Counted from the first letter of the stretch, positions 2,119 through 56,611 are shown. The stretch is DNA of 60,251 bases from Candidatus Woesearchaeota archaeon (GCA_030670545.1 DAOVBM010000004.1:1-60251), one strand, 5' to 3'. Made by a program: numbers and translations. The notes: generated by a model from the sequence alone, not told the origin.

Positions 2119-2200
2119 AATCACAAATACACTAAATGGAGTATATAATATTTTCGATTGCCTGATTAAAATAATCAAAATTAGAGGTTACTTTGCACTG

Positions 2201-5783: not shown

Positions 5784-6109
5784 GTAAGTAAAAAGTCTGC
5801 TATTCAAGGAGCATCAGCATCATCAGTCAAAACTTAATCCTTTGCCTTATCCTGTTCGTCGCGGGGAACCTCTGAGGCAAAACCGAACGAGGTGCCAGAA
5901 ATTGTGAAACAATTTCTCAGCAGCCCCATTCGGGGACGCAGAACCTTCTGATAACCTATCCTAAGTACTTGGAGAGCAAAGCTCTCTAAGTTACTTGGAA
6001 GGCATAGCCTTCTAAGTTCTTAAGGAACTTTGTTCCTCAAGACTTAATGAGCTACGCTCATCAAGATTTGAAGATGCTTGTGCTCCGTTACATCTGACTT
6101 TTTACTTAC
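5784..6109 (+). mobile_element. MITE family A, copy A1 (expanded 326-bp variant)
   Basis: Perfect 14-bp terminal inverted repeat GTAAGTAAAAAGTC / GACTTTTTACTTAC. It is flanked by the perfect 8-bp direct repeat TCTTTAAG (5776-5783 and 6110-6117). It is homologous to copies at 27653, 38355 and 50553 and has two internal insertions. Confidence 0.8.
5962..6062 (+). repeat. tandem array of four ~25-nt units, each a TAAGTNCTT-like spacer plus a 6-7 bp/3-nt-loop hairpin
   Basis: Units: taagtactt-GGAGAGCaaaGCTCTC, taagttactt-GGAAGGCataGCCTTC, taagttctta-AGGAACtttGTTCCT, caagacttaa-TGAGCtacGCTCA. Stem sequences differ but complementarity is kept. Confidence 0.7.
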
Positions 6110-20798: not shown

Positions 20799-22010
20799 TC
20801 AAGCTAATCCCAACCCTTCTGCCAATATTTTGTTTATTTTATCTTTTATGTGGGAAGGTACAGACATGGATATTTCTCTTGTTCTCCCATATCTTCCTTT
20901 TGATGTTACTTTTGCAGTTATAATTCCTGACATGTCCAACTCTGCAATAACGTCACTTATCCTTCTCTGTGTTAATGGTCTTAATCCTACATTTGAGCAT
21001 ATTTTCTTATATATTTCATATACTTCCCCAGTTAATATGCTATCATTTCTTTCTTTATTTAATTTTAAAATTGCGTATAATGTGGCTTGGAATTGTTTGG
21101 GTTGAGAGCATACTATATCTTGTATTCTATCTCTTTCTATTTTTGCTTCTGCTTTATCGAGGTGTTTTATGACTACATTCTGTTTCCCTTCTCTTTCTGC
21201 TATCTCTCCTGCAACTCTTATAAGTTCAAGGGCCCTTCTGGCGTCACCGTGTTCTCTTGCAGCATAAGCTGCGCATTTTTCTATAAGCCCTTGCTCAATT
21301 ATATCTTCTTTAAATGCTTTCTTTATTCTTTCAGTGAGTATACTCTGGATCTGCAATGCATTATAGGGTGGAAATACAATTTCTTCCTCGCTTAAAGAAG
21401 ATTTTACTCTTGGATCAATATTATCCACAAATACAAGATCATTTGATATTCCAATTAATGTTATAATAGAGTTATCAAGATCTTCATTGATTCTTGTCAA
21501 ATTGTATAATATTTCATCCCCTGCTTTTTTTATTAACTGGTCTATCTCATCAAGTATTATTACAAGGAGCGTTTTTTCTTTATCAACAGAATTATAAAAT
21601 ATCTTATATACTTCTTCAGTCGGAAGGCCTGTTGCAGGTATACTTTTTCCTAATTTTCTTGCAAGTTCTGCTATTAGTCTGTATTCTGTATCAGCAACTT
21701 TTTTAAGCTTGCAATTAATATAAAATACCTTGATTGGGATTTTCTTGTCTTTTGCTACTTCCATTATCTTATTTGTAGTATATTTGACAGAAAGTGTCTT
21801 TCCTGTGCCAGTTTTTCCATATACAAAAAGATTTGATGGTTTATCTAATTTAAGTGCTGGTGCTATGATTTGGGCAATGTGGTTGATCTCATTCTCCCTA
21901 TGAGGTATATTATCTGGAGAATAATTAGACTGTAATACTCTCTTTTCTTTAAATATAGAATCTTTCTTGATAAATTTTTCAAAAAATCCAGTAATGTTAT
22001 TATCCTTCAT
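20799..22010 (-). CDS. cdc6: Orc1/Cdc6 replication initiator
   Basis: AAA+ Walker A GKTGTGKT, Walker B VIILDEID and a C-terminal winged helix. It sits next to the AT-rich spacer. Confidence 0.92.
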   Translation of the reverse strand: MKDNNITGFFEKFIKKDSIFKEKRVLQSNYSPDNIPHRENEINHIAQIIAPALKLDKPSNLFVYGKTGTGKTLSVKYTTNKIMEVAKDKKIPIKVFYINCKLKKVADTEYRLIAELARKLGKSIPATGLPTEEVYKIFYNSVDKEKTLLVIILDEIDQLIKKAGDEILYNLTRINEDLDNSIITLIGISNDLVFVDNIDPRVKSSLSEEEIVFPPYNALQIQSILTERIKKAFKEDIIEQGLIEKCAAYAAREHGDARRALELIRVAGEIAEREGKQNVVIKHLDKAEAKIERDRIQDIVCSQPKQFQATLYAILKLNKERNDSILTGEVYEIYKKICSNVGLRPLTQRRISDVIAELDMSGIITAKVTSKGRYGRTREISMSVPSHIKDKINKILAEGLGLA

Positions 22011-22212
22011 TTAATTTCCAAAAGAAGTAAAGGTATTTAAATTCTTTTATTTTCATATTTTATATTAATAAAATATATTAAAATCATGAAAATCTGATAC
22101 AAGTATCAAATTATACACTTTAATACTTGAATATGTAGTTTAATATGATATAAAAATATATTAATTATAATTTATATATGATAATAATTATACTTAAAAT
22201 AAGGTGATAGTG

Positions 22213-22235
22213 ACCCCTTTATTTCATATGGAAAA
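22213..22235 (-). promoter_or_regulatory. ORB-like element (G-string + dyad): ACCCC-TTTA-TTTCATATGGAAAA
   Basis: The reverse complement reads TTTTCCATATGAAA-TAAA-GGGGT. It resembles archaeal origin recognition boxes (TTCCA..GGAAA dyad followed by GGGGT), recalled from Pyrococcus/Sulfolobus origins. Confidence 0.35.
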
Positions 22236-22289
22236 TGTTATTTTATGTTTTAAGTTCTTATGCTTTATTTTGTTTAATATAAGTTTAAT

Positions 22290-22459
22290 ATAGATAACGA
22301 AAATTTGACAATTTATTGATAGCAAATCCTATCCCTACCATAAATGGTGGGGTATTACAGATTTGCATTATATATTATCAAATTTTTGGAATCCAAAATT
22401 TCGCACTGAAGTAAGGGGTATTAAACCCCAATAAAATTTCTTGCGAAATTTTCGATAAA
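22290..22459 (+). repeat. repeat family B, copy B2 (inside putative origin)
   Basis: Second copy of the ~170-bp element. Contains TTTCGCACTGAAGTAAGGGGT (22399-22419) and the inverted ACCCCAATAAAATTTCTTGCGAAA (22425-22448). Confidence 0.75.
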
Positions 22460-22472
22460 ATAAATTATTAAA

Positions 22473-22520
22473 ATATAATAATATAATAATATAATAATAT
22501 AATAATATAATAATATATAT
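22473..22520. repeat. tandem repeat (ATATAATA)x5 plus a partial unit
   Basis: Five perfect contiguous ATATAATA units at 22473-22512, followed by ATATATAT. This is a candidate DNA unwinding element. Confidence 0.8.
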
Positions 22521-22747
22521 ATTATATAATATATTTCAATATAGAAAATAATAAAAAATGACAAATAACAATTATCAATAATATTAAACTCTATACGAAA
22601 TAAGGGGGACAGAGAACAAAATAAACCATTTTTCATTACTATATAATCATTAAAAATAGAAACATTTATATACTTGTTGCGACTCACAAATGATAACACA
22701 TAAAAAAAGGGTGCGATTCAGCAATTAACGATTAAGAGGAATACAAA

Positions 22748-23539
22748 ATGATTATACAAGAAGAATTTTTGGGAAAAATAAAATACTTTGGATTAAATAG
22801 TTATGAAGCAAAACTCTGGACAGCACTTCTTTCAAGAGGAATATCAACCGCAGGAGAATTAAGTGATATTGCAAATGTACCAAGATCAAGAAGTTATGAT
22901 GTCCTTGAATCCCTTGAAAAAAAAGGATTTATTATTATGAAAATAGGAAAACCTATTAAATATATTGCAGTGCATCCAGAAGAGGTAATAGAAAGAGTAA
23001 AGAAAGGAATAAGAAAAAAAGCTGACGAAAAATCTAAAATACTAACAAACCTTAAAGAAAGTGAATTAATCAAAGAACTTAACACCCTTCATTCACAAGG
23101 AATAGAATTTATTGAATCATCTGACCTTTCAGGGTCTTTTAGAGGAAGGGACTCAATATACTGTCATATGGATAGCTTAATTAAAAAAGCAAATAAATCT
23201 GTAGACATCATGACAACATCAGAAGGAATAATAAGAAAAGCAAAAACTCTCAAAAATGCACTTAAGAAAGCGAATGAAAAAGGAGTAAAAATAAGAATAG
23301 CAGCACCGTTAACCAAAGAGAATAATGATGCTGTAAAATTACTATCTAAATTCGCTGAGATAAAAGACACAAAAGCCAATACAAGATTTTGTATAGTTGA
23401 CAATGAGGAGCTGGTTTTTATGATTCTTGATGATAAAGAAGTACATCCATCATATGACACTGGAGTATGGGTAAATACTAAATTTTTTTCAAATACCCTT
23501 AAAAACATGTTTGATAATGAATGGGAAAATACAATTTAG
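22748..23539 (+). CDS. TrmB-family transcriptional regulator (paralog 1)
   Basis: N-terminal TrmB wHTH (LNSYEAKLWTALLSRGISTAGELSDIANVPRSRSYDVLESLEKKGFI) and a C-terminal PLD-like TrmB effector domain. Close paralog of 54601-55419. Confidence 0.85.
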   Translation: MIIQEEFLGKIKYFGLNSYEAKLWTALLSRGISTAGELSDIANVPRSRSYDVLESLEKKGFIIMKIGKPIKYIAVHPEEVIERVKKGIRKKADEKSKILTNLKESELIKELNTLHSQGIEFIESSDLSGSFRGRDSIYCHMDSLIKKANKSVDIMTTSEGIIRKAKTLKNALKKANEKGVKIRIAAPLTKENNDAVKLLSKFAEIKDTKANTRFCIVDNEELVFMILDDKEVHPSYDTGVWVNTKFFSNTLKNMFDNEWENTI

Positions 23540-23736
23540 AAATAATTCTATTTTTTTCAAATTCTATTTTTTAATTATTTATAAAGTATGAAATACTTTA
23601 TTAATACCATAAATTTTCACAATCTTAATCATTTATGAAATTTTCTCGTTTTGTGGAAAATAAACGCAAGATTTAAATATATTAATTTTAATATAAATAA
23701 AATTATCATTTTATAAATAAGAAAAGAGGTGTTTTA

Positions 23737-23937
23737 ATGGGACTTGAAGATATAAGTATAGTTATTCTTTCTATAATTATAGGTACTTTGGCAGCTATAG
23801 TATACAGCTTAAGAGTATTAGTTCTTATGGAAAGAAGAGTTGCAAAAATAGAGAAACACATAGAAGTTCTTGCTCAGAGGATATTAAAAGAAGAACAGAA
23901 TATAGAAAAAAACATAAAGAAAAGAAAAAAGAAATAA
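23737..23937 (+). CDS. small membrane protein (1 TM + charged coiled tail)
   Basis: 66 aa. GAGGTG Shine-Dalgarno 6-7 nt upstream of the ATG, one TM helix and a Lys/Glu-rich tail. Confidence 0.45.
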   Translation: MGLEDISIVILSIIIGTLAAIVYSLRVLVLMERRVAKIEKHIEVLAQRILKEEQNIEKNIKKRKKK

Positions 23938-27652: not shown

Positions 27653-27826
27653 GTAAGTAAAAATTCTGCTATTCAAAGAGCACCAGCATCATCAGTCAAA
27701 ACTTAATCATTTTCCTTATCCTGCTCGTCGCGGGGGGAAATCCCATTCGGGGACGCAGAGCCTTCTAATAACACATCCTAAGTTTTGAAGATGCTTGTGC
27801 TCAGTGACGTCTGACATTTTACTTAC
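27653..27826 (+). mobile_element. MITE family A, copy A2 (174 bp)
   Basis: Termini GTAAGTAAAAATTC ... GACATTTTACTTAC. Perfect 8-bp direct repeat ATTTTCAA at 27645-27652 and 27827-27834. Confidence 0.8.
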
Positions 27827-38354: not shown

Positions 38355-38527
38355 GTAAGTAAAAAGTCAGATATAACGGAGCACAAGCATCTTCAAAACT
38401 TAGGATAGGTTATTAGAAGGCTCTGCGTCCCCGTAAGGGACAACCCCCGCGACGAGCAGGATAAGGAAAAGGATTAAGTTTTGACTGATGATGCTGATGC
38501 TCCTTGAGTAGCAGACTTTTTACTTAT
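38355..38527 (-). mobile_element. MITE family A, copy A4 (173 bp, inverted orientation)
   Basis: Termini GTAAGTAAAAAGTC ... GACTTTTTACTTAT. Perfect 8-bp direct repeat CAGAATAA at 38347-38354 and 38528-38535. Confidence 0.8.
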
Positions 38528-42341: not shown

Positions 42342-43559
42342 ATGCCACCTAAAAAAGCAGCAAAAAGAGCAGCACGCAAATCTTTAGCAAAGAAGCATAC
42401 AAGAAAATCCAGAAAACATTCTGTGCCAAAGCAAAAAAAACCATTAGTGAAGACAGCGAAAGCTTTATCCACACCAGAAGAAATAATAAGTGAAGTAAGA
42501 AACGAGAAGATATTTTTAGCTGGTCATAAGTCAAGAGCTGAAGATGAGAATATAATTCTTATAAAGAAAAGGGACATACTGCAAGAAAGGGTCCAGGAAC
42601 TAAAATCAGGTATGAACGAGGCAAATGAGCGGATAATTACTCTTGCAGAAGAAATTGCCAAGAGAAACAGTAATCTTAAGCTGCTTTCAGATGCATATAT
42701 TGAGGTAAAAGAGAATTATGATTCAATGAAGGCGAATATAAGCAAGTTTAAGTCAGACATAGCATCAAGAGATTCTACTATCCAAAGCCTGAAGTCAGTT
42801 ATTGAAAAATACAAAAAACAGATTATGAGAACCAACCCCCATATTGAAACCCTGTACAAAAGGTTGACACAATCCCAGATCAAGGAAAGGCAAATAGCTA
42901 TAATCAATAATAAGTTGAATAAGCAGTGCGACATCCTTATTGAAGACACTAAGAAAAAAGATATGGAATTAACGCAGAAAGACGAAGAAGCAAAAAATCT
43001 GGTTGAGAAAGAGCGCAGCAGGATTACGCTGGATGCAGAAAAACAGATTACAGATTATTTGCAGAAAGAAATGTTTCTAAAGAAAAAAATCGCGCATATA
43101 AATAAGCAGCTTATGGAAAAAGACAGTATAATCACTCAGAAGGACAAAAAGATATCAATGCTCAATGGAATATACAGGAAGATTAAGGATTTTATTGAAA
43201 CCGGAAACATAGTCACAGGAAAAGCAGCAACTGCAAAGAAGCGAATCTTCCCTTCTTTTGTACGGAAAACAGTCCCTGAGAAGCCTATTCAGTTGTTTCC
43301 TGAAGAGGAACAAGAAAAGGGCCAGCTCCAAGGGATAGAGGAAAAGGGATTTGAGACTGAACCAATTGTAATTGAGAAAACTGCTCCAGCTGAAGAAACA
43401 CTTCCCTATACTGCTGATGAAATAGTTCCTATAGTAATTGTTGCCTTGCAGCATGGAGATTCCCATGCAACTATAAAGAATTCTTTAATAAGCTCTGGTT
43501 ATAATCCTGTTGAAGTGAATAAGGCTGTAGAAAAAGTAAAAGAAAAATCTGCAGCATAA
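42342..43559 (+). CDS. Lys-rich N-terminus + long coiled-coil protein, unknown function
   Basis: 405 aa. MPPKKAAKRAARK... basic head, ~250 aa of heptad-like coiled coil and a small C-terminal globular segment. It starts 13 nt after rfcS. It is not an RFC large subunit, having no Walker motifs. Confidence 0.55.
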   Translation: MPPKKAAKRAARKSLAKKHTRKSRKHSVPKQKKPLVKTAKALSTPEEIISEVRNEKIFLAGHKSRAEDENIILIKKRDILQERVQELKSGMNEANERIITLAEEIAKRNSNLKLLSDAYIEVKENYDSMKANISKFKSDIASRDSTIQSLKSVIEKYKKQIMRTNPHIETLYKRLTQSQIKERQIAIINNKLNKQCDILIEDTKKKDMELTQKDEEAKNLVEKERSRITLDAEKQITDYLQKEMFLKKKIAHINKQLMEKDSIITQKDKKISMLNGIYRKIKDFIETGNIVTGKAATAKKRIFPSFVRKTVPEKPIQLFPEEEQEKGQLQGIEEKGFETEPIVIEKTAPAEETLPYTADEIVPIVIVALQHGDSHATIKNSLISSGYNPVEVNKAVEKVKEKSAA

Positions 43560-43597: not shown

Positions 43598-44524
43598 TTA
43601 TTCTTTCTTTATCCTTACAGATTCCTGTATCAGATACCTGTATTTGTATTTGATTGTCAGGCCAAGGTCTTCTGTATAAAGTGTTCCTTTTGGCATAGCA
43701 TCTTTAAGTTTACAGGTTATCTTTGCTTTCCCTGCAGAGTCAAATCTTCCTTCATTTAGCTTGCCTGCTGCCCTACACTCCCATTTGTTATCATCTGATG
43801 ATTCAAATGCGAATTTATTGTACCTTCTATCAAAATCCTGTCCCTGAATCGCAACATCCCCTCCGCCTGCATTATCTATTTCAATCTCAACAGCAATCTT
43901 TGAGCTTCCTGCTGTAGCTTCTTTTGCGGATTTTACCTGGATAGGTGCTCCTGAAGAAAATACTTCTTTTGGTTCACTTACATCGCATATTGATTCATCC
44001 TGGAGATCTTCTTTAAAGCATACTTTCTTCACTGTAGTTTCAGTCCTGTAATCAAATACAACCTCAGCGAATATATCAAGATCAACTGATGAGCCACTGA
44101 ATTTTGTTACATATTTTGCATCATCAGTGCCAGGGGTGAAATCAAGAATCTCTTCTCCTCCTAGATCATTTGTCTCTGATATCTTCTCAATTGTTTCTTT
44201 ATTTGATAATAGGCCTCCTTGTGCAATGCCTGAAAATGACCCAAGATATATACCTTTTAGTGTTACTGTAACTTCTCCCTGATTTACTTCTGTTTCACCT
44301 TTATTCTGGAGAATAATCTCTATCGGAAATGTCTCATCTTCATATATTTCATTTATTTTTGTATCATCATTAAATATTCCCAGATCCATGAATTCTGCGG
44401 AAATTCCTCTTGTTCCACCAACATAAGGCGATTCCGCAATCTCGACAGTTGTATCCTTGTTACAGCCTGCAAACATAAATACTAATAATATAATTGAAAC
44501 CAATGCAATCCATTTATTATCCAT
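43598..44524 (-). CDS. secreted lipobox protein, paralog 1 of surface-module family
   Basis: Signal peptide ending ...VFMFAGC. Shares ordered motifs with 44572-45516 and 45587-46558. Confidence 0.7.
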   Translation of the reverse strand: MDNKWIALVSIILLVFMFAGCNKDTTVEIAESPYVGGTRGISAEFMDLGIFNDDTKINEIYEDETFPIEIILQNKGETEVNQGEVTVTLKGIYLGSFSGIAQGGLLSNKETIEKISETNDLGGEEILDFTPGTDDAKYVTKFSGSSVDLDIFAEVVFDYRTETTVKKVCFKEDLQDESICDVSEPKEVFSSGAPIQVKSAKEATAGSSKIAVEIEIDNAGGGDVAIQGQDFDRRYNKFAFESSDDNKWECRAAGKLNEGRFDSAGKAKITCKLKDAMPKGTLYTEDLGLTIKYKYRYLIQESVRIKKE

Positions 44525-44571
44525 TTTGATACCTCCTCTTATAGATATAATTTTTAATACTTTATAAATTT

Positions 44572-45516
44572 TTATACTTTAATTATCTCTACTCTTTTTT
44601 CAATTGATGATGAATAAACATAATCCAGTTCTATGTGGAGAGAGGTAATGAAAGTTGTTCCTGTCTCAGGCTTTCTGAATTTGCATGTTATGAATCCAGT
44701 TCCCCCATCTCTTAACATGACTGGCTCAGATCCACTGCCTCTTGGGGTGCACTGAGGATTTGAATCAAAAGGAAGCTTTGCATTGACCCTTACCCTATTG
44801 ACATCCTTAAGCTCAAGCTCAAAAGGACAGTAGTCATATGATGTCCAGTCAATTACTTTCCCATTGCCTACATTGCTTATATAGATATCAAATATTATAT
44901 GATCTGAACTTACCCTCTCTTCAATTCTTGTGATTGCTACAGGCGCGCCCTGGCCGCCTCCAGTGCTTATAGCATCATCAAAGCGGCATACTTTTTTCTC
45001 AGTTATGACTTTATAAGGTTCAGGGTCTATGCATACTTTAGGGTCAGTGATTGTCTTATATTTGTAGCATGCAGTTACCAGAAATGTTGCATCATATTTT
45101 GGCCCCCCAAATGGAACCTTGACTCCTCTCTTGTCGCTGTAAGTCATTATATCATATCCTCCGTCAGGATATTCCCTTGACCTCCCTCTCAAACTTACTG
45201 GAATTTCATTTCCACCTTCCCATGTACCCCTTATTGCATTAGGGTCAAATCCTGATATTTCCAGTTTGCCCTGGAATGTGTCAGATTCAGGGTAAGACCC
45301 CCTGTTCCTGAGCTCAATCATTATATCAAGGCTGTCGCCGTCATAAACCTTTGATGGTGGAGCATTTGGCACAAAATACATCTCCAGCCCCATTGTGCCA
45401 GTATGATAACTAGTTTCATCAACCCTTATCTCTCCGTCTTGTTCACATCCTGACAGCAGCAGAGCTGCAATCATTATAATGATTATGCAGTAGATTCCTT
45501 GTTTCATTTTTAGCAT
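44572..45516 (-). CDS. secreted lipobox protein, paralog 2 of surface-module family
   Basis: Signal peptide ending ...ALLLSGC. Motifs IELRNRGS, VTACYKYKT..VCIDP, QGAPVAITRIEE, ISNVGNG, ITCKF and IELDYVYSSS..VEIIKV. Confidence 0.7.
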   Translation of the reverse strand: MLKMKQGIYCIIIIMIAALLLSGCEQDGEIRVDETSYHTGTMGLEMYFVPNAPPSKVYDGDSLDIMIELRNRGSYPESDTFQGKLEISGFDPNAIRGTWEGGNEIPVSLRGRSREYPDGGYDIMTYSDKRGVKVPFGGPKYDATFLVTACYKYKTITDPKVCIDPEPYKVITEKKVCRFDDAISTGGGQGAPVAITRIEERVSSDHIIFDIYISNVGNGKVIDWTSYDYCPFELELKDVNRVRVNAKLPFDSNPQCTPRGSGSEPVMLRDGGTGFITCKFRKPETGTTFITSLHIELDYVYSSSIEKRVEIIKV

Positions 45517-45586
45517 TAAACTGATTTTGTCTGGTTTATATTGTTATTCTATCTCCACCTTTTTAAAATTTTCTAAACAAATCAGA

Positions 45587-46558
45587 TTATATACCTATTT
45601 TCCTTATTGATATCCCTTTTGAGATTGTTTGCATATAGCCATAATCTGCAGTTATAGTAAGTGGAGTATAGTAGCTTGAGATTGTTTCATCTATTCCTTC
45701 TTCAAGAGTACATATGGTATAGTCTGAATCTTTTCTTAGTTTCAATAATTCTGGCTTACATGAAAGGGGCAAGTCAGATAATACTGCACTAACCTTTAAT
45801 ACATTGATATCATCAGTTGAAAGAGGTTGTGCAGAGCACGCAATGTCAGCCCTGCCATGAGCTATAATAGTTCCATCTCCAACATTCTCAAAATGGATTA
45901 TAAATTGAGGTCTAACAACTCCCCCTTCTTTTGAGACAATCATTCTTGATTCTATACGCTTTATAGCGACTGGCGCTCCCTGGTCACTAAGGCTTACATC
46001 TGCAGCATTGCATGCCTTTTCGCGCGGTTTCAGATTATATACATCAGTATCGACGCATACGTTTGAATGTCCCTTTGTGTGATAATCATAACATACTGTG
46101 ACATAGATTGTGGTATCGGCTTTTTCTCTCTGCGGGCCTATATCCATTATTTCAAGGTTAACAATATCCACATCTTCCATACCCTCGGGCAAAGCAAGGG
46201 ATTTCCCTTGAATATCTATAGTTATCCTGTCATCTATACCTTTTCCCTGCCAGCTTGAAAGTTTAATATACTCCTTTTCATATCCCAGAAGAAGGTAACC
46301 TCTTTTCACGTCTGATGTTCCTTTATTTTCCATAATGATTCCTGCCTGGATCAATGAGCCTTCAATGACATCTGGAGGCGGAGCGCCTTCAATGAATTCA
46401 ATTATCAGCCCGTCAGAGCCTTGTTCTATATCTTCAAGTGAAGGCCTTTCAGGCTTGTATACCCTATCGCATCCTGATGTAAGGATAATCAAAATACATA
46501 GCAGAAGGAACAGGCAAAATGCATTGCTTCTCTTTTTTCCTGCCTTATTTCCTTTCAT
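45587..46558 (-). CDS. secreted lipobox protein, paralog 3 of surface-module family
   Basis: Signal peptide ending ...ILTSGC. Motifs IMENKGTS, VTVCYDYHT..VCVDT, QGAPVAIKRIES, FENVGDG, TICTL and ITADYGYMQT..ISIRKIGI. The ATG at 46558 overlaps the upstream stop (TGATG), and the track start at 46561 is a TTG. Confidence 0.7.
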   Translation of the reverse strand: MKGNKAGKKRSNAFCLFLLLCILIILTSGCDRVYKPERPSLEDIEQGSDGLIIEFIEGAPPPDVIEGSLIQAGIIMENKGTSDVKRGYLLLGYEKEYIKLSSWQGKGIDDRITIDIQGKSLALPEGMEDVDIVNLEIMDIGPQREKADTTIYVTVCYDYHTKGHSNVCVDTDVYNLKPREKACNAADVSLSDQGAPVAIKRIESRMIVSKEGGVVRPQFIIHFENVGDGTIIAHGRADIACSAQPLSTDDINVLKVSAVLSDLPLSCKPELLKLRKDSDYTICTLEEGIDETISSYYTPLTITADYGYMQTISKGISIRKIGI

Positions 46559-49107
46559 CAACTTACTACCCCATTCTTAAGTTCTATATTGGGATTGAAT
46601 AATAATCCCTCCCAGGCTGCAGGCTCTTGCGCAGGTCTTTGTATCATAACTTTGTATGATCCAGAATGAAGGTTCCTGTAATAATTAAATGTTTCAATTT
46701 TCATTTGGTCTAATAACGTGTTTTTACTGTCGCTCAGCAGGTATACCCAGATTCCATCAATATTCTTTTTAAAGCCTTTTATAAAATAATACTGGTCTGC
46801 GTCAGTCCATTTTCCATCATTATTCTTATCTTCTCCAACAAGATCATTCTTCTTGAAAAGAGTTGCTATTGGCACAGCTTCTTCTTCTTCAATTGCTGCA
46901 TCTGCTTCTCCTTTGCACAGGCGGTTTTTCCATAGGGTGTAGTATTTTAGAGCATTATCTGTACTAAATGTATCAATTTTTGTTTCAGTTTTATATGAAT
47001 CCAATGCTAATTTTATATCCTTTTCTGAGTTAATTTTGGTTTTAAGGAATTTGGCAGCCATTTCTATCTCTTTTATAGGATTGTCAAGGAATGTTGCAGG
47101 ATATCTTATACCATATCCAGTCAGATAGTCTGGTATCTTGTTATCATTTTTGTCTATATTTCCTATTCCGCTTGCTTCACTCATAATCGCAGCAATAAGC
47201 GCTTCAGCTTTGAGGTAATCAAGCCCTTGCGGCTTATTCACTTTTACAATATTTCTGACTGTGCTCTGATAGTTCTTGTACCTCTCAATGTGATCATCTG
47301 GAGGCAGGTTATTTTTGTCAGGAGAATAGTCTTTGCATTCTGTTTCTTCTATTCCTATATCTTCCTGTATCTTCTCACAACCACCACCATATTCTGTCTT
47401 TTTTATATTGACTGTAAGGCTTCTCTGGAGTTCATATTCATAGTCAGCAATTAGCTTAAAGTTCTTGATTGATATAGGAGCATTTCCAAGGAACTTATCA
47501 TAATCACTCTTATCTATCCCTATTCTGCATATCAAACTCTTGTAAAGGCTGATTCCTGGCTGGCCTGCAGGTATTATCCTCTGATTTTTTCCTGTCTGGT
47601 TTAGGACATATATATTGCTTGCATCATCATCACACCATTCATTTTCTTCTCCGAAAACAGCTGCGCAGGTTTTAGCTTCAAAATTATAGCCCCCACAATA
47701 ACTCCCTTCTGCTTTTCCATCAAGTTCAAGGTGCATCTCTTTTGGCAGTATTATTGTAAGGTTCTTCACATCCTTGATATTACCTTCCCAGACATTCTCA
47801 AGGGTTATGCCAAGCCTGAATGATTCTATGTCTCTTTTTCTGTCTATGGCAATAGGCTGGCTTTTTTCAAGCTCTACTCCTATCTTTATCGGTCCGTTTG
47901 TCGAGAGAGCAATAGGGTTTGAGTCATATACTCCTATGTTTCTCAGGATGTCCTCTGGGGTGTTTATGTTAGGATCTTGCCTTATCATACTCTGCATCCT
48001 TTCCCTGTCAATAAAGTAATTCCTCAGGTATGATAGTGTCTGAAACCCGAATGCATGATTAAAATAGATTGTTTTAGATCCTGGAGAAAACCTGCACCTG
48101 TCAAACATGCAGTCTACAGTGATTTCATCATATTGCGATACCTTTTCTGTATCTGGCTTGATTGAATCCGGAAGCACAGACTCTGCATGGCAGAAGTTCT
48201 TTATTGTTATCTCCTCTTTTAATGTCCTAATTGTCAGCCTTGAGTAAACTATTAATGGCTCATCCTCATATACCTCAGGGTCAGTTGATTTGACTTCGGT
48301 TATGCTTACCCCTAATGGCTGCCGCACATTCTGATCGACCTGGGAAGTGTAATAGTCCCCAAATACCATGGCTTGCGTAATGTTTTTTTGCCTTTTATAG
48401 CCCGTGACTGTAGAGGTCCATAGACTTTCACCAAACTCTTTTGTATTTTTCCATGAAGTCGAAGCAAAATCTTTAAAATCAGTAATGTCTTTTCCGTTTA
48501 ACATCTGCTGTGTTCCACCAAACATAACAATGCTTCCAACTGAATGGAATGCATAGAACAATACTATGAACAAGATTAACCATGACCTTTTTCTTGAAGG
48601 TTTTGTGAAAAAAAGTGGCAATAGGAACCAGATTGGGAAAATTAGCTTATTAATACTAAATAATGAGAAAGCAAAAAAGTCAAGAAATAATGCGCCAAGG
48701 ATTATCATGTTTGCCTGGCTTTTTTCCATTATCTTGTACAGCCCAGCAAAAAGGAAAGAGAACGCAAATACTAAATGAATTGTAGCCCCTAAATATCCAA
48801 TACCCCCCATTGAGATAATTATTGAAAGAAACATAACCAATGCTGCAAAGGATAGCATATCTTTGGGATTTCTTTCTTCTTTGTTTATGAAAAGATAATA
48901 TAATGCTACCAAGAGTAGAGTCAAACCATTGATATAAATTCTCCAGTCAGTTAATGCAATACTCCTAAAATAACTAAAATCTATTCCTTTAAAACGTGTA
49001 AAGAAGTCAAGCGCAAAAACCGCTAATCCCAACAATATCCACTCAAAACCAGGCCCGCTATAACTGGGTGTATATCTGGTCTGAGAATCTGGGTTGTTAT
49101 CTGCCAT
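46558..49107 (-). CDS. polytopic membrane protein (~7 N-terminal TM) with large ectodomain containing the same surface module and an SLT-like segment
   Basis: 849 aa. Residues ~20-200 are hydrophobic helices. The ectodomain contains NGPIKIGVE, ITLENVWEGN, LICRIG and LIADYEYELQRSLTVNIKK, which parallel the paralog motifs. Downstream lies the EALIAAIMSEASG segment. Confidence 0.7.
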   Translation of the reverse strand: MADNNPDSQTRYTPSYSGPGFEWILLGLAVFALDFFTRFKGIDFSYFRSIALTDWRIYINGLTLLLVALYYLFINKEERNPKDMLSFAALVMFLSIIISMGGIGYLGATIHLVFAFSFLFAGLYKIMEKSQANMIILGALFLDFFAFSLFSINKLIFPIWFLLPLFFTKPSRKRSWLILFIVLFYAFHSVGSIVMFGGTQQMLNGKDITDFKDFASTSWKNTKEFGESLWTSTVTGYKRQKNITQAMVFGDYYTSQVDQNVRQPLGVSITEVKSTDPEVYEDEPLIVYSRLTIRTLKEEITIKNFCHAESVLPDSIKPDTEKVSQYDEITVDCMFDRCRFSPGSKTIYFNHAFGFQTLSYLRNYFIDRERMQSMIRQDPNINTPEDILRNIGVYDSNPIALSTNGPIKIGVELEKSQPIAIDRKRDIESFRLGITLENVWEGNIKDVKNLTIILPKEMHLELDGKAEGSYCGGYNFEAKTCAAVFGEENEWCDDDASNIYVLNQTGKNQRIIPAGQPGISLYKSLICRIGIDKSDYDKFLGNAPISIKNFKLIADYEYELQRSLTVNIKKTEYGGGCEKIQEDIGIEETECKDYSPDKNNLPPDDHIERYKNYQSTVRNIVKVNKPQGLDYLKAEALIAAIMSEASGIGNIDKNDNKIPDYLTGYGIRYPATFLDNPIKEIEMAAKFLKTKINSEKDIKLALDSYKTETKIDTFSTDNALKYYTLWKNRLCKGEADAAIEEEEAVPIATLFKKNDLVGEDKNNDGKWTDADQYYFIKGFKKNIDGIWVYLLSDSKNTLLDQMKIETFNYYRNLHSGSYKVMIQRPAQEPAAWEGLLFNPNIELKNGVVS

Positions 49108-49228
49108 CTACTGCCTCTTTTTTTAATGCGTATATAAAGTATAGCTCTTAGGATTTACAGGCTTATTCATTTTCTCGGATGCAATTATATGGGGATCACA
49201 AAAATTTTCACAGAAAATTCTTGTAAAA

Positions 49229-50416
49229 TCAAACAAGCTCAACCCTTATGTAATCTATGGTGAGTTCAGTCTTTGGTTCAATTGTGATTGTGTTTGAATC
49301 CTCTTCAATCCACCTGCTTATGTCCTGCTCAAAAGAGTACTCATCTTCCTCAAGGTCAAAGTTGTCCCTGCGGTCATTGATCATGAAGTCGCCTCTTTTT
49401 TCATCATATCCTTTGAACTTTATCTTGAGCTTTACGTCAACATCGCCGTCTATGATATTATCATATATATCATCGCTAACATCAAAACCATACTTCCATC
49501 TCTGCGACTCTTTGTAATCAAGTTCTATTCTTATATTCTGTATTGTATAAGTTCCTTTTGTTGTCTGGAATATGACATAATTCTCACCTTCTTCAAGCAG
49601 GCCGACAGGCATTGGCTGCCTGTATATATCATTGCATTCAGGCACTGCAGAGAATATTTCCCTATTATTTACCAGTATATCAAGCACTCCTACCTTCCCT
49701 CCCTCGCATGAAGGGACAAAATTAAGCTTTGCGCTCTCAAGATTATCATATTCAGAATCGCTTAGAGTAAAGATGTTTCTGCTTTTCTGCTTTGATATAT
49801 CAGTTATGTCTGCAGTGATCTTTGCCCTTTCTATCTTGTATTCATTTGTTCTCCAGAACCTGGATCCGACTCCATCAACGCTGAATTCAAGGTGATTGAT
49901 GTCCTGCAGGTATTTCTTGTCAATCTTGATTGGTTCTATATCACCAATCTTTGCAGGATATTCATACAACACGATTCCATTAAGCTTTATTGTCAATGTG
50001 CCTCTTGCTTCAGTCACCCGCATTGACAGAAGGATATTCTCTGTTTTCTCCATATCCTCTATTGTGAATGTAAGGTTATTGAATTCCTTGTCAAACCAAC
50101 CGTTCTTTATGATAAATGGATTGAATGTGGCAACTTCTTTTGCGTTTATTATCTCAAACAGGTATACATTAGGAAGTTCTTTCTGTTCAGCTTCCTCAAA
50201 AGGGGAGAGATATATGTCTGTCTCTTCCATCAGCACGTCTTCCTGAAGTACAGTTGTACTGTCACTTGTTGTAGTTGTCGTCTTTCCTTCTTTCTCATCA
50301 AGAAGCTCTTCCCTTACATCTGGTGGGAGGAATAGTATATAGAATATAATCAACAGTAAGATTATCAATACAAGTGTGGCTGCTTGGGATCCGCCAGCCT
50401 GTGCCTTTCTTCTCAT
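49229..50416 (-). CDS. N-terminally membrane-anchored extracellular protein, first gene of surface cluster
   Basis: 395 aa. MRRKAQAGGSQAATLVLIILLLIIFYILF anchor, a Thr-rich linker (TTTTSDSTT), then beta-rich domains ending in ..IRIELDYKES.. and ..TIDYIRVELV. Confidence 0.65.
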   Translation of the reverse strand: MRRKAQAGGSQAATLVLIILLLIIFYILFLPPDVREELLDEKEGKTTTTTSDSTTVLQEDVLMEETDIYLSPFEEAEQKELPNVYLFEIINAKEVATFNPFIIKNGWFDKEFNNLTFTIEDMEKTENILLSMRVTEARGTLTIKLNGIVLYEYPAKIGDIEPIKIDKKYLQDINHLEFSVDGVGSRFWRTNEYKIERAKITADITDISKQKSRNIFTLSDSEYDNLESAKLNFVPSCEGGKVGVLDILVNNREIFSAVPECNDIYRQPMPVGLLEEGENYVIFQTTKGTYTIQNIRIELDYKESQRWKYGFDVSDDIYDNIIDGDVDVKLKIKFKGYDEKRGDFMINDRRDNFDLEEDEYSFEQDISRWIEEDSNTITIEPKTELTIDYIRVELV

Positions 50417-50552: not shown

Positions 50553-50726
50553 GTAAGTAATAAATAGCTTATAAGGAATAGTAGCATCATCAGGTACAAA
50601 ACCCTTTCCAAGATTTAATCTTGTGCGTCGCAAGGGGTTGCCCCCTTCGGGGACGCAGCACTTTCGGCTACACAACAGGGGTTTTGAAGATGCTACTACC
50701 CCTTAGGCGGCAGACTCATGACATAT
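50553..50726 (+). mobile_element. MITE family A, copy A5 (174 bp, diverged termini)
   Basis: The internal core is homologous to A1/A2/A4 (..AGCATCATCAGG.., ..GCGTCGCAAGGGGTTGCCCCCTTCGGGGACGCAG.., ..TTTTGAAGATGCTAC..). Perfect 8-bp direct repeat GATAATTA at 50545-50552 and 50727-50734. The right terminus is degenerate. Confidence 0.7.
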
Positions 50727-51826: not shown

Positions 51827-52237
51827 TCATATTTTTGTAAGGACCCTCTCTGGTGGAATCACTTTACCCCCAACATTGATATTTTCCTCTTCTTCTGTAT
51901 CAGCATCAGTCTCTTGTTTGAATTCCTTTGTCTCTCCTGGCATGATAACCTGTGTTGATACAAAAGTCTTGGAAGTCCCATTTGATAATGTGAATGTATG
52001 TTCAACAGTGAATTGCCCTTCTTGAGAATCTAAATTCCTGACATTGACTACAGACCCTACCACTATACCTGAATCATTCCTGTCTGTATACTTATATGTA
52101 CTGACTATTTCATATCTTAGAGGTCCTTCCAGATATTCTTCAATCTCCTGATCTGGTACATCATTCATTGCGTATTCAGGCTGGCAGCCTGTCAGAATAA
52201 ACACAATAACAAATATTGAAAATATCACTCTTTTCAT
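51827..52237 (-). CDS. small secreted lipobox protein
   Basis: 136 aa. Signal peptide ending ...FILTGC. The start overlaps the stop of the acetyl-CoA synthetase alpha gene. Confidence 0.55.
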   Translation of the reverse strand: MKRVIFSIFVIVFILTGCQPEYAMNDVPDQEIEEYLEGPLRYEIVSTYKYTDRNDSGIVVGSVVNVRNLDSQEGQFTVEHTFTLSNGTSKTFVSTQVIMPGETKEFKQETDADTEEEENINVGGKVIPPERVLTKI

Positions 52238-55489: not shown

Positions 55490-56611
55490 TCATAGCGTTC
55501 TTATTAAGAGTATGATGCTCCCTCTGGCTAATAATGTTAACAATACACCAAAGAACATAAATGGAGCAAATGGGAGGCTTTGTTGTATTCGCAAATACTG
55601 AAAATTCGGATGCTTATCCCGCAGTATCCTAAGCTTTTTAATATCCTTCTCACTAAGGCCCTCAGTACAACAGCTAATTATACTTTTTTGATTCTTATTG
55701 GCAAGGTATTCAAAGAAGCTGAAAAAAAGCAGCTTTTTTTTCCTTAATCTATTGTCCTGGTTTTTGCCTGATTTATCTTTATCAGTTCCTGATTCATATA
55801 TGATTTCTGCAGGAATCATACCTTGTCTTAAATTTGATATTTTGATTTTCCTTGAAAAATGCTGGAAGCTTAAATCGAGGAATATAAGCCTGAAGATGAT
55901 AAATATTATGAATGTTACCAAGAGCATCTTAAGAAAATGCAGATTATAAACTTTGCGGCTTAATGCAAGAATTAATATAGAGCAAATTCCCATTATTTTC
56001 AAGAGATGCTTTTGACCTAATGTTGATTGAGAAAATAATGATATTGTAAATAATATTGGAATAATAATCAGATATGGTAATTGCATTCCCCATTTTTCAG
56101 AGATGAATGTCAAAAGCCAGATAAACACAAAGAATGAAATAAATTGGGGGGCTAGATCTCTTATCTTCAATACATTCATTATAGAATCTTTTTTTTGTTT
56201 CCAGTGTGTCATAAGAATCACATTAATGGCAAAAAATACAAATATCGGAATAAATGTGTTAATAAATAGGTTTAAGGAAGGGAAATAAGGGACAAAGCTT
56301 GACTGATTATAAATTAAAATAGGAATTAGCGCAGAATATGCTGTAAATAGCTTTCCATCGCCGGAACTCCATAGTTTCATATCCCAAAGGAAGAATCCTG
56401 CCAGTAAGGCAATAATAAAATTAGAAGTCATGTGGATTATGTAATCTTTATTTGTGCCTACTTCCAATACAAAAAGAAGAAAAATATGCATAAAAAGAGA
56501 ATAGATTATTGCTCCAAATATCGCAGTATTCTTTATTTTGCCATATCTTATATCAGTGTAAGAGGTGTAGATACCTAATGCAATTATCGCTGGCAAAAAA
56601 TATGCAATCAT
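55490..56611 (-). CDS. A24-family (prepilin/preflagellin peptidase-like) membrane aspartyl protease with long cytoplasmic insert
   Basis: First catalytic Asp in YTDIRYGKIKN, the second in SSGDGKLF (GxGD type), and C-terminal LPFAPFMFFG. A ~100-aa Lys-rich insert precedes the last helices. Confidence 0.7.
   Translation of the reverse strand: MIAYFLPAIIALGIYTSYTDIRYGKIKNTAIFGAIIYSLFMHIFLLFVLEVGTNKDYIIHMTSNFIIALLAGFFLWDMKLWSSGDGKLFTAYSALIPILIYNQSSFVPYFPSLNLFINTFIPIFVFFAINVILMTHWKQKKDSIMNVLKIRDLAPQFISFFVFIWLLTFISEKWGMQLPYLIIIPILFTISLFSQSTLGQKHLLKIMGICSILILALSRKVYNLHFLKMLLVTFIIFIIFRLIFLDLSFQHFSRKIKISNLRQGMIPAEIIYESGTDKDKSGKNQDNRLRKKKLLFFSFFEYLANKNQKSIISCCTEGLSEKDIKKLRILRDKHPNFQYLRIQQSLPFAPFMFFGVLLTLLARGSIILLIRTL

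What the first reader, a model, noticed from the sequence alone, without database searches (positions are those of the whole stretch)
43598..50416. Five-gene cluster built from one uncharacterised extracellular module: candidate novel cell-surface or host-contact apparatus
All five genes are on the minus strand with short gaps or overlap. In order they are a 395-aa N-anchored protein, an 849-aa protein (~7 TM plus a ~600-aa ectodomain) and three ~310-aa lipobox paralogs, with a TGATG overlap at 46558. The paralogs share an ordered motif series: G(T/S)xG(L/I)..(E/Y)F, I(E/M/L)..N(K/R)G, V(T/V).CY(K/D)Y(K/H)T...VC(I/V)D, QGAPVAI(T/K)RIE, (S/E)NVG(N/D)G, (I/T)(T/I)C(K/T), and a terminal (I/L).(L/A)DY.Y.....(I/V).I.K. 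The second half of the module recurs inside the 849-aa ectodomain (NGPIKIGVE, ITLENVWEGN, LICRIG, LIADYEYELQRSLTVNIKK), and the terminal strand recurs in the 395-aa protein (IRIELDYKES). Conserved Cys pairs suggest disulfide-stabilised beta-sandwiches. I recognise no characterised family beyond a generic likeness to CARDB/DUF11/COG1361 surface domains. A membrane platform plus multiple lipid-anchored paralogs, in what looks like a reduced and possibly symbiotic archaeon, would fit an attachment or envelope complex.
Basis: partly seen in the sequence, partly recalled or inferred. Interest (0 to 1): 0.78.

Follow-up and report, generated by a model that had tools for sequence, protein, structure and literature searches.

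The report
Archaeal surface complex targeting bacterial walls
This is a five-gene operon kept in fixed order across more than 150 species of tiny, probably symbiotic Woese-/Pacearchaeota, and in about half of them its large membrane protein carries an enzyme that cuts bacterial cell wall, which gives a concrete candidate for how these uncultured archaea contact bacteria.

Summary
The five minus-strand genes are real (43598-50416). They form an operon (E-D-L1-L2-L3) kept in the same order, between Pelota and RFC, in Woese-/Pace-/Nanoarchaeota MAGs: D followed E in all 54 species loci that had room.

The "one module in all five" idea is only partly right. The three ~310-aa lipobox proteins are true paralogs, each made of two beta-sandwiches (AF2 pLDDT 93). 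Each is an ancient, position-specific ortholog group (99%). Profile comparisons do not link them to the 849-aa or 395-aa proteins.

- **E395** is its own family, with a textbook class III (prepilin-like) signal and internal repeats.
- **D849** has 7 TM helices, two beta-sandwiches, a helical adaptor and a C-terminal "payload" slot.
- **Payloads in orthologs:** that slot holds SLT/GH23 (27/54), GH73, M23, Amidase_2 or Amidase_3. These are five unrelated peptidoglycan-hydrolase families.
- **This window's D849:** the slot holds only an orphan beta-domain.

Best reading is a lipid-, pilin- and 7TM-anchored surface apparatus for engaging bacterial murein, present here in a hydrolase-less variant. 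No curated family or solved structure matches any subunit. SLT proteins of these archaea are in the literature, but the operon is not in the papers I read.

The parts
49229..50416 (-). Gene E (395 aa). A surface protein with a class III (prepilin-like) signal anchor, followed by about 340 aa of repeated beta-rich domains.
   Evidence: ORF. The family has more than 340 homologs at 40-77% identity, all in Woese-/Pace-/Nanoarchaeota. The N-terminus across 120 sequences reads [KR][KR][A/G/S]-Q(120/120)-GG-h-N-AA plus about 20 hydrophobic residues. Internal repeats: residues 205-300 vs 300-395 give hhalign prob 63%, E 7e-5. Weak CBM-like and sialidase-N lectin hits occur in 7/42 members, all below cut-off.
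50324..50416 (-). E395 residues 1-31: MRRKA|QAGGSQAATLVLIILLLIIFYILFLPP, a putative prepilin-peptidase site followed by a hydrophobic helix.
   Evidence: Position-specific conservation and hydropathy. Cleavage itself is an inference.
46558..49107 (-). Gene D (849 aa). The polytopic platform: 7TM block, two beta-sandwiches, a helical adaptor and a C-terminal payload slot.
   Evidence: ORF. The family has 1,096 representative clusters with a conserved core at profile positions 15-575. The AF2 model has pLDDT 55.6 overall and 70-88 for residues 265-570.
48508..49107 (-). D849 residues 1-200: the 7-TM block (N-in, C-out), with conserved D34, G41, H111, D143 and P158 in the outer third of the bilayer.
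   Evidence: Helices. Conservation across 206 orthologs is 80-90%. Positive-inside count is 6 vs 2. The topology and residue placement are inferences, and AF2 confidence here is below 50.
48007..48315 (-). D849 residues 265-367: ectodomain beta-sandwich 1, preceded by the conserved juxtamembrane motif G-D/G-Y-Y-x-x-x-V-D-x-N (residues 250-260).
   Evidence: AF2 DSSP strands 266-367 with pLDDT 70-84. G266, C306 and C333 are 98-100% conserved.
47398..47910 (-). D849 residues 400-570: ectodomain beta-sandwich 2 (NGPxxIG, LGITxxNxWxG, terminal Y556-x-Y558 strand).
   Evidence: Fold-search hits are generic only: AglB C-terminal domain, RbmA, integrin alpha legs and NPC2, all with TM-score below 0.3.
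46888..47340 (-). D849 residues 590-740: a helical adaptor. This is not the lytic transglycosylase.
   Evidence: It is homologous to the segment upstream of the SLT in P0258 (639-711; SLT at 838-947) and upstream of the M23 domain in P0271 (740-830; M23 at 925-1030). hhalign against an SLT profile gives prob 5%.
46561..46887 (-). D849 residues 741-849: the payload slot, occupied here by an orphan beta-rich domain with no recognisable hydrolase.
   Evidence: The domain is conserved only in the close clade P0002-P0007. The only Pfam hint is SdrD_B at E 0.021. In orthologs the slot holds SLT, GH73, M23, Amidase_2 or Amidase_3.
45587..46561 (-). Gene L1 (C324). Lipobox lipoprotein with two beta-sandwiches; position-1 ortholog group. 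Its start overlaps the stop codon of D.
   Evidence: The best hit is position 1 in 32/32 other loci.
44572..45516 (-). Gene L2 (B314). Lipobox lipoprotein with two beta-sandwiches; position-2 ortholog group.
   Evidence: AF2 pLDDT 92.9, pTM 0.85. 105 homologs. Fold hits are generic tandem Ig-like matches only. Position 2 in 32/32 loci.
43598..44524 (-). Gene L3 (A308). Lipobox lipoprotein with two beta-sandwiches; position-3 ortholog group.
55490..56611 (-). A24 prepilin peptidase gene, which lies outside the operon. It is a candidate processing enzyme for E395, acting in trans.
   Evidence: Pfam Peptidase_A24 (1.9e-5) plus Arc_PepC (9.4e-9). The link to E395 is an inference.

Best explanation
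The operon encodes a multi-subunit apparatus on the outer face of the archaeal membrane, with three kinds of subunit.

1. **D** is a 7-TM platform (N-in, C-out). Its ectodomain is a leg of two beta-sandwiches, then a helical adaptor, then an exchangeable C-terminal payload.
2. **E** is exported with a prepilin-type signal and stays anchored by its N-terminal hydrophobic helix. It presents three repeated beta-rich, possibly glycan-binding, domains.
3. **L1, L2 and L3** are three non-redundant lipid-anchored tandem beta-sandwich paralogs. They probably assemble in fixed stoichiometry around D and E.

Across the clade the payload is usually a peptidoglycan hydrolase with intact catalytic motifs. 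I therefore infer that the ancestral and most common job of the apparatus is to bind bacterial murein and open it locally. That could serve attachment to a bacterial host or prey, wall penetration, or harvesting of wall material.

In this window's lineage the hydrolase has been replaced by a small orphan beta-domain. This copy is most likely a docking or adhesion variant, or it works with an unrecognised enzyme or one supplied in trans.

What is shown: the gene set, its synteny, the anchoring signals, the folds of the L proteins, and the payload domains in orthologs. What is inferred: physical assembly of the subunits, the topology of D, cleavage of E, the identity of the target cell, and what the payload-less variant does.
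For: **Operon conservation.** The order E-D-L-L-L between Pelota and RFC holds in close and distant MAGs. In 80 species-genome loci, D follows E in 54/54 with room. Three L genes follow in 34/42, four in 2 and two in 6.

**Non-redundant lipoproteins.** The three lipoproteins are position-specific ortholog groups at 99% across 33 loci.

**Anchoring signals.** A lipobox is present in 232/245 L proteins. E has a class III-type signal with invariant Gln+1, and an A24 peptidase gene lies 5 kb away. D has 7 TM helices with a positive-inside bias.

**Payload.**
- SLT occurs in 19/49 long D-family members, M23 in 3, Amidase_2 in 2 and Amidase_3 in 1.
- GH73 glucosaminidase occurs in 4 of 30 members of a further set of D orthologs, 26 of them SLT-negative.
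- SLT occurs in 27/54 operon-resident D orthologs.
- The domains all sit C-terminal to the core.
- The SLT catalytic Glu is 96% conserved and GxMQ 100%.

**Taxonomy and literature.** Named members are Woesearchaeota or Nanobdellota archaea. The literature already reads the SLT proteins of these lineages as tools for binding or degrading bacterial walls (PMC8204110, PMC9723730, PMC10936187), and archaeal peptidoglycan hydrolases can kill bacteria (PMC12352652).
Against: - The window's own D849 has no detectable hydrolase, and none is found elsewhere in the 60 kb.
- 27 of the 54 operon-resident D orthologs lacked an SLT by my HMM. Among the 26 of these that were scanned against Pfam, only GH73 (4 members of the 30-sequence set) added a recognisable wall hydrolase. 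The conserved core function therefore need not be murein cleavage.
- The operon sits in a stable housekeeping neighbourhood and looks vertically inherited, which suits a core envelope function as much as a host-interaction device.
- No physical interaction between the subunits was tested.
- The TM block of D was modelled with pLDDT below 50.
- No host is known for these organisms.
Confidence: 0.55

Rival explanations
1. A housekeeping envelope structure of the archaeon itself. In this reading the lipid-anchored tandem Ig-like L proteins, together with E and D, form or anchor an S-layer-like canopy or envelope scaffold. The hydrolase domains on D would be secondary add-ons, or would act on a polymer of the cell's own wall.
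For: The operon is present in every relative that could be examined, and always at the same locus between Pelota and RFC. 27/54 D orthologs lacked an SLT, and Pfam found a hydrolase (GH73) in only 4 of the 30 scanned, so at least about 40% have no recognisable hydrolase. Many archaeal S-layer proteins are built of Ig-like domains and are lipid- or TM-anchored (general knowledge; review PMC5744192). The three fixed paralogs would suit a lattice unit.
Against: There is no sequence or fold match to any known S-layer protein. Five different murein-specific hydrolase families were recruited to the same slot, which is hard to explain without murein as substrate. Archaea are not known to make murein, and these lineages are described as lacking it (PMC8204110, PMC10936187).
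Confidence: 0.2
2. A scavenging and import machine. The payload releases muropeptides or amino sugars from bacterial wall debris. E and the L proteins bind the fragments. The 7-TM block of D, with its conserved Asp/His/Asp cluster, acts as the uptake channel or as an outer-leaflet enzyme.
For: D34, H111, D143 and P158 are 80-90% conserved within the membrane block, far more than a passive anchor needs. They all map to the outer third of the bilayer. There are weak CBM-like and lectin hints in E. These archaea have reduced metabolism and are thought to rely on scavenged compounds (PMC8204110, PMC11537232). Coupling of lytic transglycosylase activity to a muropeptide permease is reported in bacteria, from the abstract of PMC13507758 as listed.
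Against: The TM block has no similarity to any transporter family. The AF2 model of the block is unreliable. The CBM hits are below threshold. No ATPase or energy-coupling gene lies in the operon.
Confidence: 0.12
3. One reading: all five proteins are built from one duplicated extracellular module, forming a homotypic attachment complex.
For: D849's ectodomain is also a pair of beta-sandwiches, each ending in a long strand. BLASTP of B314 242-303 against E395 247-305 gives 31% identity.
Against: All L-D and L-E profile comparisons give probabilities of at most 3%. Global scores are no better than the reversed controls. The BLASTP E-value of 7e-4 was computed in a six-sequence database. E has its own repeat family.
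Confidence: 0.1
4. Chance adjacency of unrelated surface-protein genes, with no functional unit.
For: None beyond the lack of experimental data.
Against: The gene order is conserved in 54/54 loci across proteins only 40% identical. Start/stop overlaps occur between D and L1. Orthology is position-specific.
Confidence: 0.01

Closest known systems
[quoted passage not shown] 2021, PMC8204110; GH23 proteins in Vigneron et al. 2022, PMC9723730)
   Same: The same lineages are involved. D-family members are labelled 'transglycosylase SLT domain-containing protein [Ca. Woesearchaeota / Nanobdellota]' by NCBI, and half of the operon-resident D orthologs carry an SLT. The proposed role, binding or degrading bacterial walls, is also the same.
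   Different: The papers I read describe single proteins identified by their SLT domain. They do not describe the conserved 7TM plus double-sandwich core, the exchangeable payload (GH73, M23, amidases or none), or the four partner genes. This window's copy has no SLT. I could not verify that fam00969 is the D family, because no sequences were at hand.
Membrane-anchored peptidoglycan hydrolases of envelope-spanning machines (VirB1-type SLT of type IV secretion; TM-anchored hydrolases of monoderm conjugation systems)
   Same: An SLT, M23 or amidase domain is held at the membrane as part of a multi-protein surface assembly so that it can open murein locally.
   Different: Those enzymes cut the producer's own wall and work with ATPases and channel subunits. 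Here the producer is an archaeon without murein, the operon has no ATPase, and no subunit is homologous to a T4SS component. This comparison rests on my own knowledge and on PMC12102498, which appeared in the search list but which I did not read.
FtsEX-type control of extracellular hydrolases (FtsX with PcsB, EnvC or CwlO)
   Same: A polytopic membrane protein with an extracellular domain is coupled to a murein hydrolase.
   Different: There is no homology. FtsX has 4 TM helices and needs the FtsE ATPase. Here the hydrolase is fused to the membrane protein, not recruited. This is an analogy only, from my own knowledge.
Archaeal surface proteins with class III signal peptides (type IV pilin-like proteins; Sulfolobus 'bindosome' sugar-binding proteins)
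   Same: E has a short basic leader, a small residue at -1, an invariant Gln at +1 and a hydrophobic helix of about 20 residues. A prepilin peptidase gene is nearby.
   Different: There is no Pfam Class_IIIsignal or Pilin_N hit. Asn, not Glu, sits at +5. No assembly ATPase or platform gene is in the operon. The globular part of E is an unrelated repeat family.
CARDB / DUF11 / integrin-alpha-leg type tandem beta-sandwiches
   Same: The L proteins and the D leg are tandem Ig-like sandwiches with hxhxNxG strand motifs. The top fold hits are integrin alpha thigh/calf domains, DUF4466 and DUF11-containing giant-virus proteins.
   Different: TM-scores are about 0.2. CARDB reaches E 0.04-0.06 in 4/56 members, below the gathering score. 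The resemblance is at the level of fold class only.
Archaeal peptidoglycan hydrolase toxins that kill bacteria (PMC12352652)
   Same: Archaea deploying murein hydrolases against bacteria. That study reports Nanoarchaeota as rich in such homologs.
   Different: Transmembrane anchoring and operon context are not mentioned in that paper (neither 'transmembrane' nor 'operon' occurs in its text). Here the hydrolase is the tip of a 7TM-anchored, multi-subunit, vertically inherited apparatus.

Membership tests
SLT / GH23 lytic transglycosylase (PF01464) | Pfam score above gathering threshold, with catalytic Glu-Ser, GLMQ and AYNxG motifs | tested here: not met
   D849 has no Pfam hit, either whole or per domain, even at E<=10. 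hhalign of its C-terminus against an SLT profile gives prob 5%. The helical region maps upstream of the SLT in P0258. Orthologs do meet the test: 19/49 and 27/54, with Glu 96% and GxMQ 100% conserved.
D-family platform of Woese-/Pacearchaeota (this report; database label 'SLT domain-containing protein') | Homology over the 7TM block plus the double beta-sandwich core (profile positions 15-575) | tested here: met
   The profile built from D849 and its close homologs finds 1,096 representative clusters, 543 of them at E<=1e-30, all aligned over the core. Core residues G266, C306, G405, P406, G442 and Y556 are 100% conserved.
fam00969 of Castelle et al. 2021 | Being the same protein cluster as the published SLT family | not testable with these tools
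   Only the description is available (PMC8204110). No sequences of that family were at hand.
Prokaryotic lipoproteins (lipobox) | A hydrophobic region followed by [LIV][SAT][GAS]-Cys near the N-terminus | tested here: met
   The window proteins have FAGC, LSGC and TSGC. 232/245 family members match, and Cys24 is invariant.
Prokaryotic lipoproteins (lipobox) | Actual lipid modification and signal cleavage | not testable with these tools
   This needs mass spectrometry or labelling in a cultured organism.
Class III signal peptide / type IV pilin-like proteins | [KR][GA(S)] cleavage motif followed by a hydrophobic helix, with a prepilin peptidase in the genome | tested here: met
   At -2, K/R in 103/120. 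At -1, A/G/S in 119/120. At +1, Q in 120/120. The A24 peptidase gene lies at 55490-56611.
Class III signal peptide / type IV pilin-like proteins | Pfam Class_IIIsignal or Pilin_N match; cleavage and assembly into a filament | tested here: inconclusive
   No Pfam hit at E<=1. Cleavage and assembly cannot be tested here.
CARDB (PF07705) / DUF11 (PF01345) | Pfam score above gathering threshold | tested here: not met
   CARDB scores 14.1 bits against a cut-off of 22.7 in A308. Only 4/56 members reach E<=0.1. There is no DUF11 hit.
Oligosaccharyltransferase AglB/STT3 | 13-TM GT-C domain, WWDYG motif, Pfam STT3 match | tested here: not met
   The only link is a Foldseek hit to the beta-rich C-terminal globular domain, with TM-score below 0.2. 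There is no STT3 Pfam hit, D849 has about 7 TM helices, and its motif is G-D-Y-Y, not WWDYG.
Known S-layer, solute-binding, pilus or archaellum components | Any profile or fold match | tested here: not met
   Pfam, NCBIfam, PDB sequence profiles and Foldseek (PDB and BFVD) give no such match.

The most novel reading that the evidence does not exclude
E, D and L1-L3 form a previously unrecognised, clade-defining archaeal cell-surface machine. In this reading it is a 7TM, pilin-like and tri-lipoprotein docking complex with a plug-in enzymatic tip, and it is the primary organelle by which Woese-/Pacearchaeota attach to and breach their hosts. The payload type (SLT, GH73, M23, amidase, or the non-catalytic domain seen here) would then report the envelope type of the host. 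The conserved outer-leaflet Asp/His/Asp site in D would carry a new membrane-embedded activity.
Probability: 0.3. Interest if true: 0.88.

Novelty: new variant of a known kind. Interest (0 to 1): 0.7.

Why it matters
Woesearchaeota and Pacearchaeota are among the most widespread uncultured archaea. Their hosts and their means of attachment are unknown.

The only molecular clue so far has been scattered reports of 'large SLT proteins'. This analysis places those proteins in context. They are one subunit of a five-gene, vertically inherited operon found in at least 154 species genomes, and the subunit has a modular tip that has independently recruited five kinds of murein hydrolase.

This turns a vague idea into testable predictions:
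- which proteins to look for at contact sites by cryo-ET and proteomics;
- which domains to assay on bacterial sacculi;
- whether payload type tracks host type.

It also defines three protein families (E, D-core, L) that currently have no Pfam, NCBIfam or PDB counterpart. Finally, it flags a conserved intramembrane Asp/His/Asp site of unknown function.

Tried and rejected
- **Curated families.** Pfam and NCBIfam scans of all five proteins, whole and split into domains, gave nothing above threshold.
- **PDB by sequence.** Profile searches for the L, D and E families gave nothing.
- **Fold searches.** Foldseek of the B314 model against PDB and BFVD, and of the D849 model against PDB, returned only generic Ig-like or tandem-sandwich hits with TM-scores of about 0.1-0.3. 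I considered the AglB/STT3 hit as a lead to a GT-C glycosyltransferase. I rejected it because there is no STT3 profile hit, the TM count is wrong and the motif is different.
- **Is D849 590-740 a degenerate SLT?** I suspected so from the sequence 'AIMSEASG...GYGI...'. I rejected it because the segment aligns to a region upstream of the true SLT or M23 domain in P0258 and P0271.
- **One module in all five.** Local and global hhalign runs with reversed-profile controls were not significant.
- **Rosetta-stone fusions of L paralogs.** The long L ORFs in L010 and L043 are position-2 proteins with C-terminal extensions, not fusions. The L010 extension shows only an FnIII-like match and the L043 extension shows nothing.
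- **D849 TM block.** The AF2 model was too weak (pLDDT below 50) to use for fold inference.
- **Literature.** The first search, using generic terms, was uninformative.
- **SLT elsewhere.** A six-frame search of the window with the SLT HMM found none.

Full report
**1. What is in the window**

Five ORFs lie on the minus strand:
- A308 at 43598-44524
- B314 at 44572-45516
- C324 at 45587-46561
- D849 at 46558-49107
- E395 at 49229-50416

The gaps are 47, 70, -4 and 121 nt. The D stop and the C start overlap in TGATG. The flanking genes are housekeeping genes:
- On one side, the RFC small subunit and a Lys-rich coiled-coil ORF.
- On the other side, Pelota, a small lipobox protein and an ADP-forming acetyl-CoA synthetase.

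The rest of the window carries PheRS, ThiI, MCM, PolD, Cdc6, FEN1, a proteasome-type AAA ATPase and an A24 prepilin peptidase. GC content is 24-40%. Homologs are labelled Nanoarchaeota, Woesearchaeota or Pacearchaeota. The organism is therefore a DPANN archaeon of the Woese-/Pacearchaeal radiation.

**2. The three lipoproteins**

- A308, B314 and C324 are paralogs at 23-32% identity, each with a lipobox.
- The family has 105 detectable homologs, all hypothetical proteins of the same lineages.
- Nearly all of them have a lipobox: 232/245.
- AF2 on this alignment gives a very confident model, with pLDDT 92.9 and pTM 0.85. It shows an N-terminal signal helix and two beta-sandwich domains.
- Foldseek finds only generic tandem Ig-like proteins at TM-scores of about 0.2: integrin alpha legs, DUF4466, Vps26, Fabs and DUF11-containing giant-virus proteins.
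- Pfam, NCBIfam and PDB sequence searches are empty, and CARDB is sub-threshold.

**3. The 'one module' claim**

Profile-profile comparison gives no support for the module recurring in D or E. Probabilities are 0.4% (L vs D), 2.7% (L vs E) and at most 3% for all domain pairs. Global alignment scores are within the range of the reversed-profile controls.

The AF2 model of D849 is weak overall, at pLDDT 55.6. For residues 265-570 it is 70-88. There it shows two beta-sandwiches, each ending in a long strand, which resembles the layout of the L module. A very remote relationship cannot be excluded, but it is not demonstrated.

E is a separate family with its own internal repeats. Residues 205-300 against 300-395 give prob 63% and E 7e-5.

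**4. Synteny**

The order Pelota<- | E D L L L -> | <-RFC is found in close relatives. It is also found in Woesearchaeota whose proteins are only about 40% identical. Two further contigs, one of them Pacearchaeota, show E and D but end before the lipoprotein genes.

A scan of one genome per GTDB species found 154 genomes that encode E. I classified the ORFs of 80 retrieved loci with HMMs built here:
- D follows E in 54 of the 54 loci that have at least 3.5 kb downstream.
- Where enough sequence remains, three L genes follow in 34 loci, four in 2 and two in 6.

Each L position is its own ortholog group. The best hit in another locus is at the same position in 99% of comparisons. The window's C324, B314 and A308 are positions 1, 2 and 3 in 32/32 loci. 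The triplication is therefore ancient and the copies are non-redundant, which fits a fixed heteromeric assembly. That last step is an inference.

**5. The key result: what D carries in other species**

An exhaustive HMMER search with the D profile finds 1,096 representative clusters. The conserved core is the TM block plus the two sandwiches, and the ends are variable.

| Set scanned against Pfam | SLT | M23 | Amidase_2 | Amidase_3 | GH73 |
|---|---|---|---|---|---|
| 49 long D-family members | 19 (best 5e-24) | 3 | 2 | 1 | 0 |
| 30 D orthologs from loci (26 SLT-negative by my HMM plus 4 SLT-positive controls) | 3 | 0 | 0 | 0 | 4 |

By a family-derived SLT HMM, 27/54 operon-resident D orthologs carry an SLT.

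All mapped domains lie C-terminal to the core:
- P0258: SLT at 838-947
- P0271: M23 at 925-1030
- P0255: M23 at 823-922
- P0250: Amidase_2 at 674-817

The SLT active site is intact, with Glu 96% and GxMQ 100% conserved. Five unrelated enzyme families with the same substrate have been recruited to the same slot. I take this as strong evidence that the apparatus works on peptidoglycan.

**6. This window's D849**

D849 has no hydrolase. Its helical segment at 590-740 aligns with the segment that lies between the core and the enzyme in P0258 and P0271. I therefore read it as an adaptor or stalk.

The payload slot at 741-849 holds a beta-rich domain found only in the closest clade. Its single weak hit is to SdrD_B, at E 0.021. 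No SLT is encoded elsewhere in the 60 kb.

**7. Anchors and membrane block**

*E.* Across 120 sequences the N-terminus reads [KR][KR][A/G/S]-Q-G-G-h-N-A-A followed by about 20 hydrophobic residues. Gln is invariant, and a small residue occupies -1 in 119/120. This is the pattern of class III, prepilin-type signals. An A24 prepilin peptidase gene lies 5 kb away. Cleavage is inferred, not shown.

*D.* The membrane block has about 7 helices. The positive-inside rule gives 6 K+R inside and 2 outside for an N-in, C-out topology. D34, G41, H111, D143 and P158 are 80-90% conserved across 206 orthologs. All of them map to the outer third of the bilayer. The block therefore looks like more than an anchor, but I cannot say what it does.

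**8. Comparison with the literature**

- Castelle et al. 2021 (PMC8204110) report that small-genome Pace- and Woesearchaeota encode large extracellular SLT-domain proteins (fam00969). They suggest attachment to bacterial walls. They also list a module of 51 mostly unknown families specific to these lineages.
- Vigneron et al. 2022 (PMC9723730) and an oxygen-deficient-zone study (PMC10936187) make similar points.
- A 2025 study shows that archaeal peptidoglycan hydrolases can kill bacteria, and it finds Nanoarchaeota rich in such homologs (PMC12352652).
- None of the passages I read describes the operon, the platform architecture, the exchangeable payload or the partner proteins.

**9. Verdict**

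The interpretation as a surface or host-contact apparatus is partly supported and made more specific.

My best explanation, at confidence of about 0.55, is a multi-subunit, membrane-anchored apparatus for engaging bacterial murein, present here in a variant without a hydrolase. The main rival, at about 0.2, is a housekeeping envelope scaffold.

I rate novelty as a new variant of a known kind. The 'known kind' is the SLT surface proteins of these archaea. The five-gene system and its three protein families are undescribed as far as I could find.

Noticed in passing
window 50566-50712 (between the E395 start and the Pelota start): A GC-rich, strongly structured element of about 135-160 nt in an AT-rich spacer. 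It has a 17-bp closing stem. The MFE is -61.7 kcal/mol, with z = -5.2 on the minus strand and -4.7 on the plus strand. It has no Rfam match and is not a tRNA. Relatives have a much shorter E-Pelota spacer (99-155 bp) without it.
   Followed up: partly
window 27718-27795, 38423-38462 and 5923-5948 (all intergenic): The core of that element (CTGCGTCCCCGAAnGGG...CCCCGCGACG) recurs in three other intergenic spots. This makes a small family of GC-rich hairpin elements, possibly MITE/REP-like or an sRNA family.
   Followed up: partly
window ~22000-23900, next to Cdc6/Orc1 (20799-22010, minus strand): A very AT-rich stretch (GC 0.24) sits beside the Cdc6/Orc1 gene and downstream of PolD DP1/DP2. It is probably the replication origin.
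   Followed up: no
window 1-60251: ARAGORN finds no tRNA, and Rfam at gathering thresholds finds no RNA family, anywhere in 60 kb.
   Followed up: no
window 775-2178 (minus strand): A 467-aa protein with a genuine DUF11 domain (E 9.7e-8), which is another surface beta-sandwich protein outside the operon.
   Followed up: no
window 51827-52237 (minus strand): A 136-aa protein with a lipobox (LTGC; LPAM_1 E 4.9e-4) lies between Pelota and the acetyl-CoA synthetase. It is unrelated to the L family and is not conserved at this position in relatives.
   Followed up: partly
window 42342-43559 (plus strand): A 405-aa Lys-rich, coiled-coil-like ORF with no Pfam match lies between RFC and A308. Relatives have a different ORF, or none, at this position.
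   Followed up: no
L010:14526-16994 and L043:15478-18564: In two species the position-2 lipoprotein has a C-terminal extension of 470-600 aa. The L010 extension shows an FnIII-like match to chitinase A1 at E 1e-3, and the L043 extension shows nothing. The L2 subunit can therefore also carry add-on domains.
   Followed up: partly
loci L013, L015, L017, L018 and many others (records from 'binchicken' co-assemblies): Many genomes that carry this Woese-/Nanoarchaeal operon are titled 'uncultured Methanosarcinales archaeon' in their records. This looks like a default or erroneous taxonomic label.
   Followed up: no
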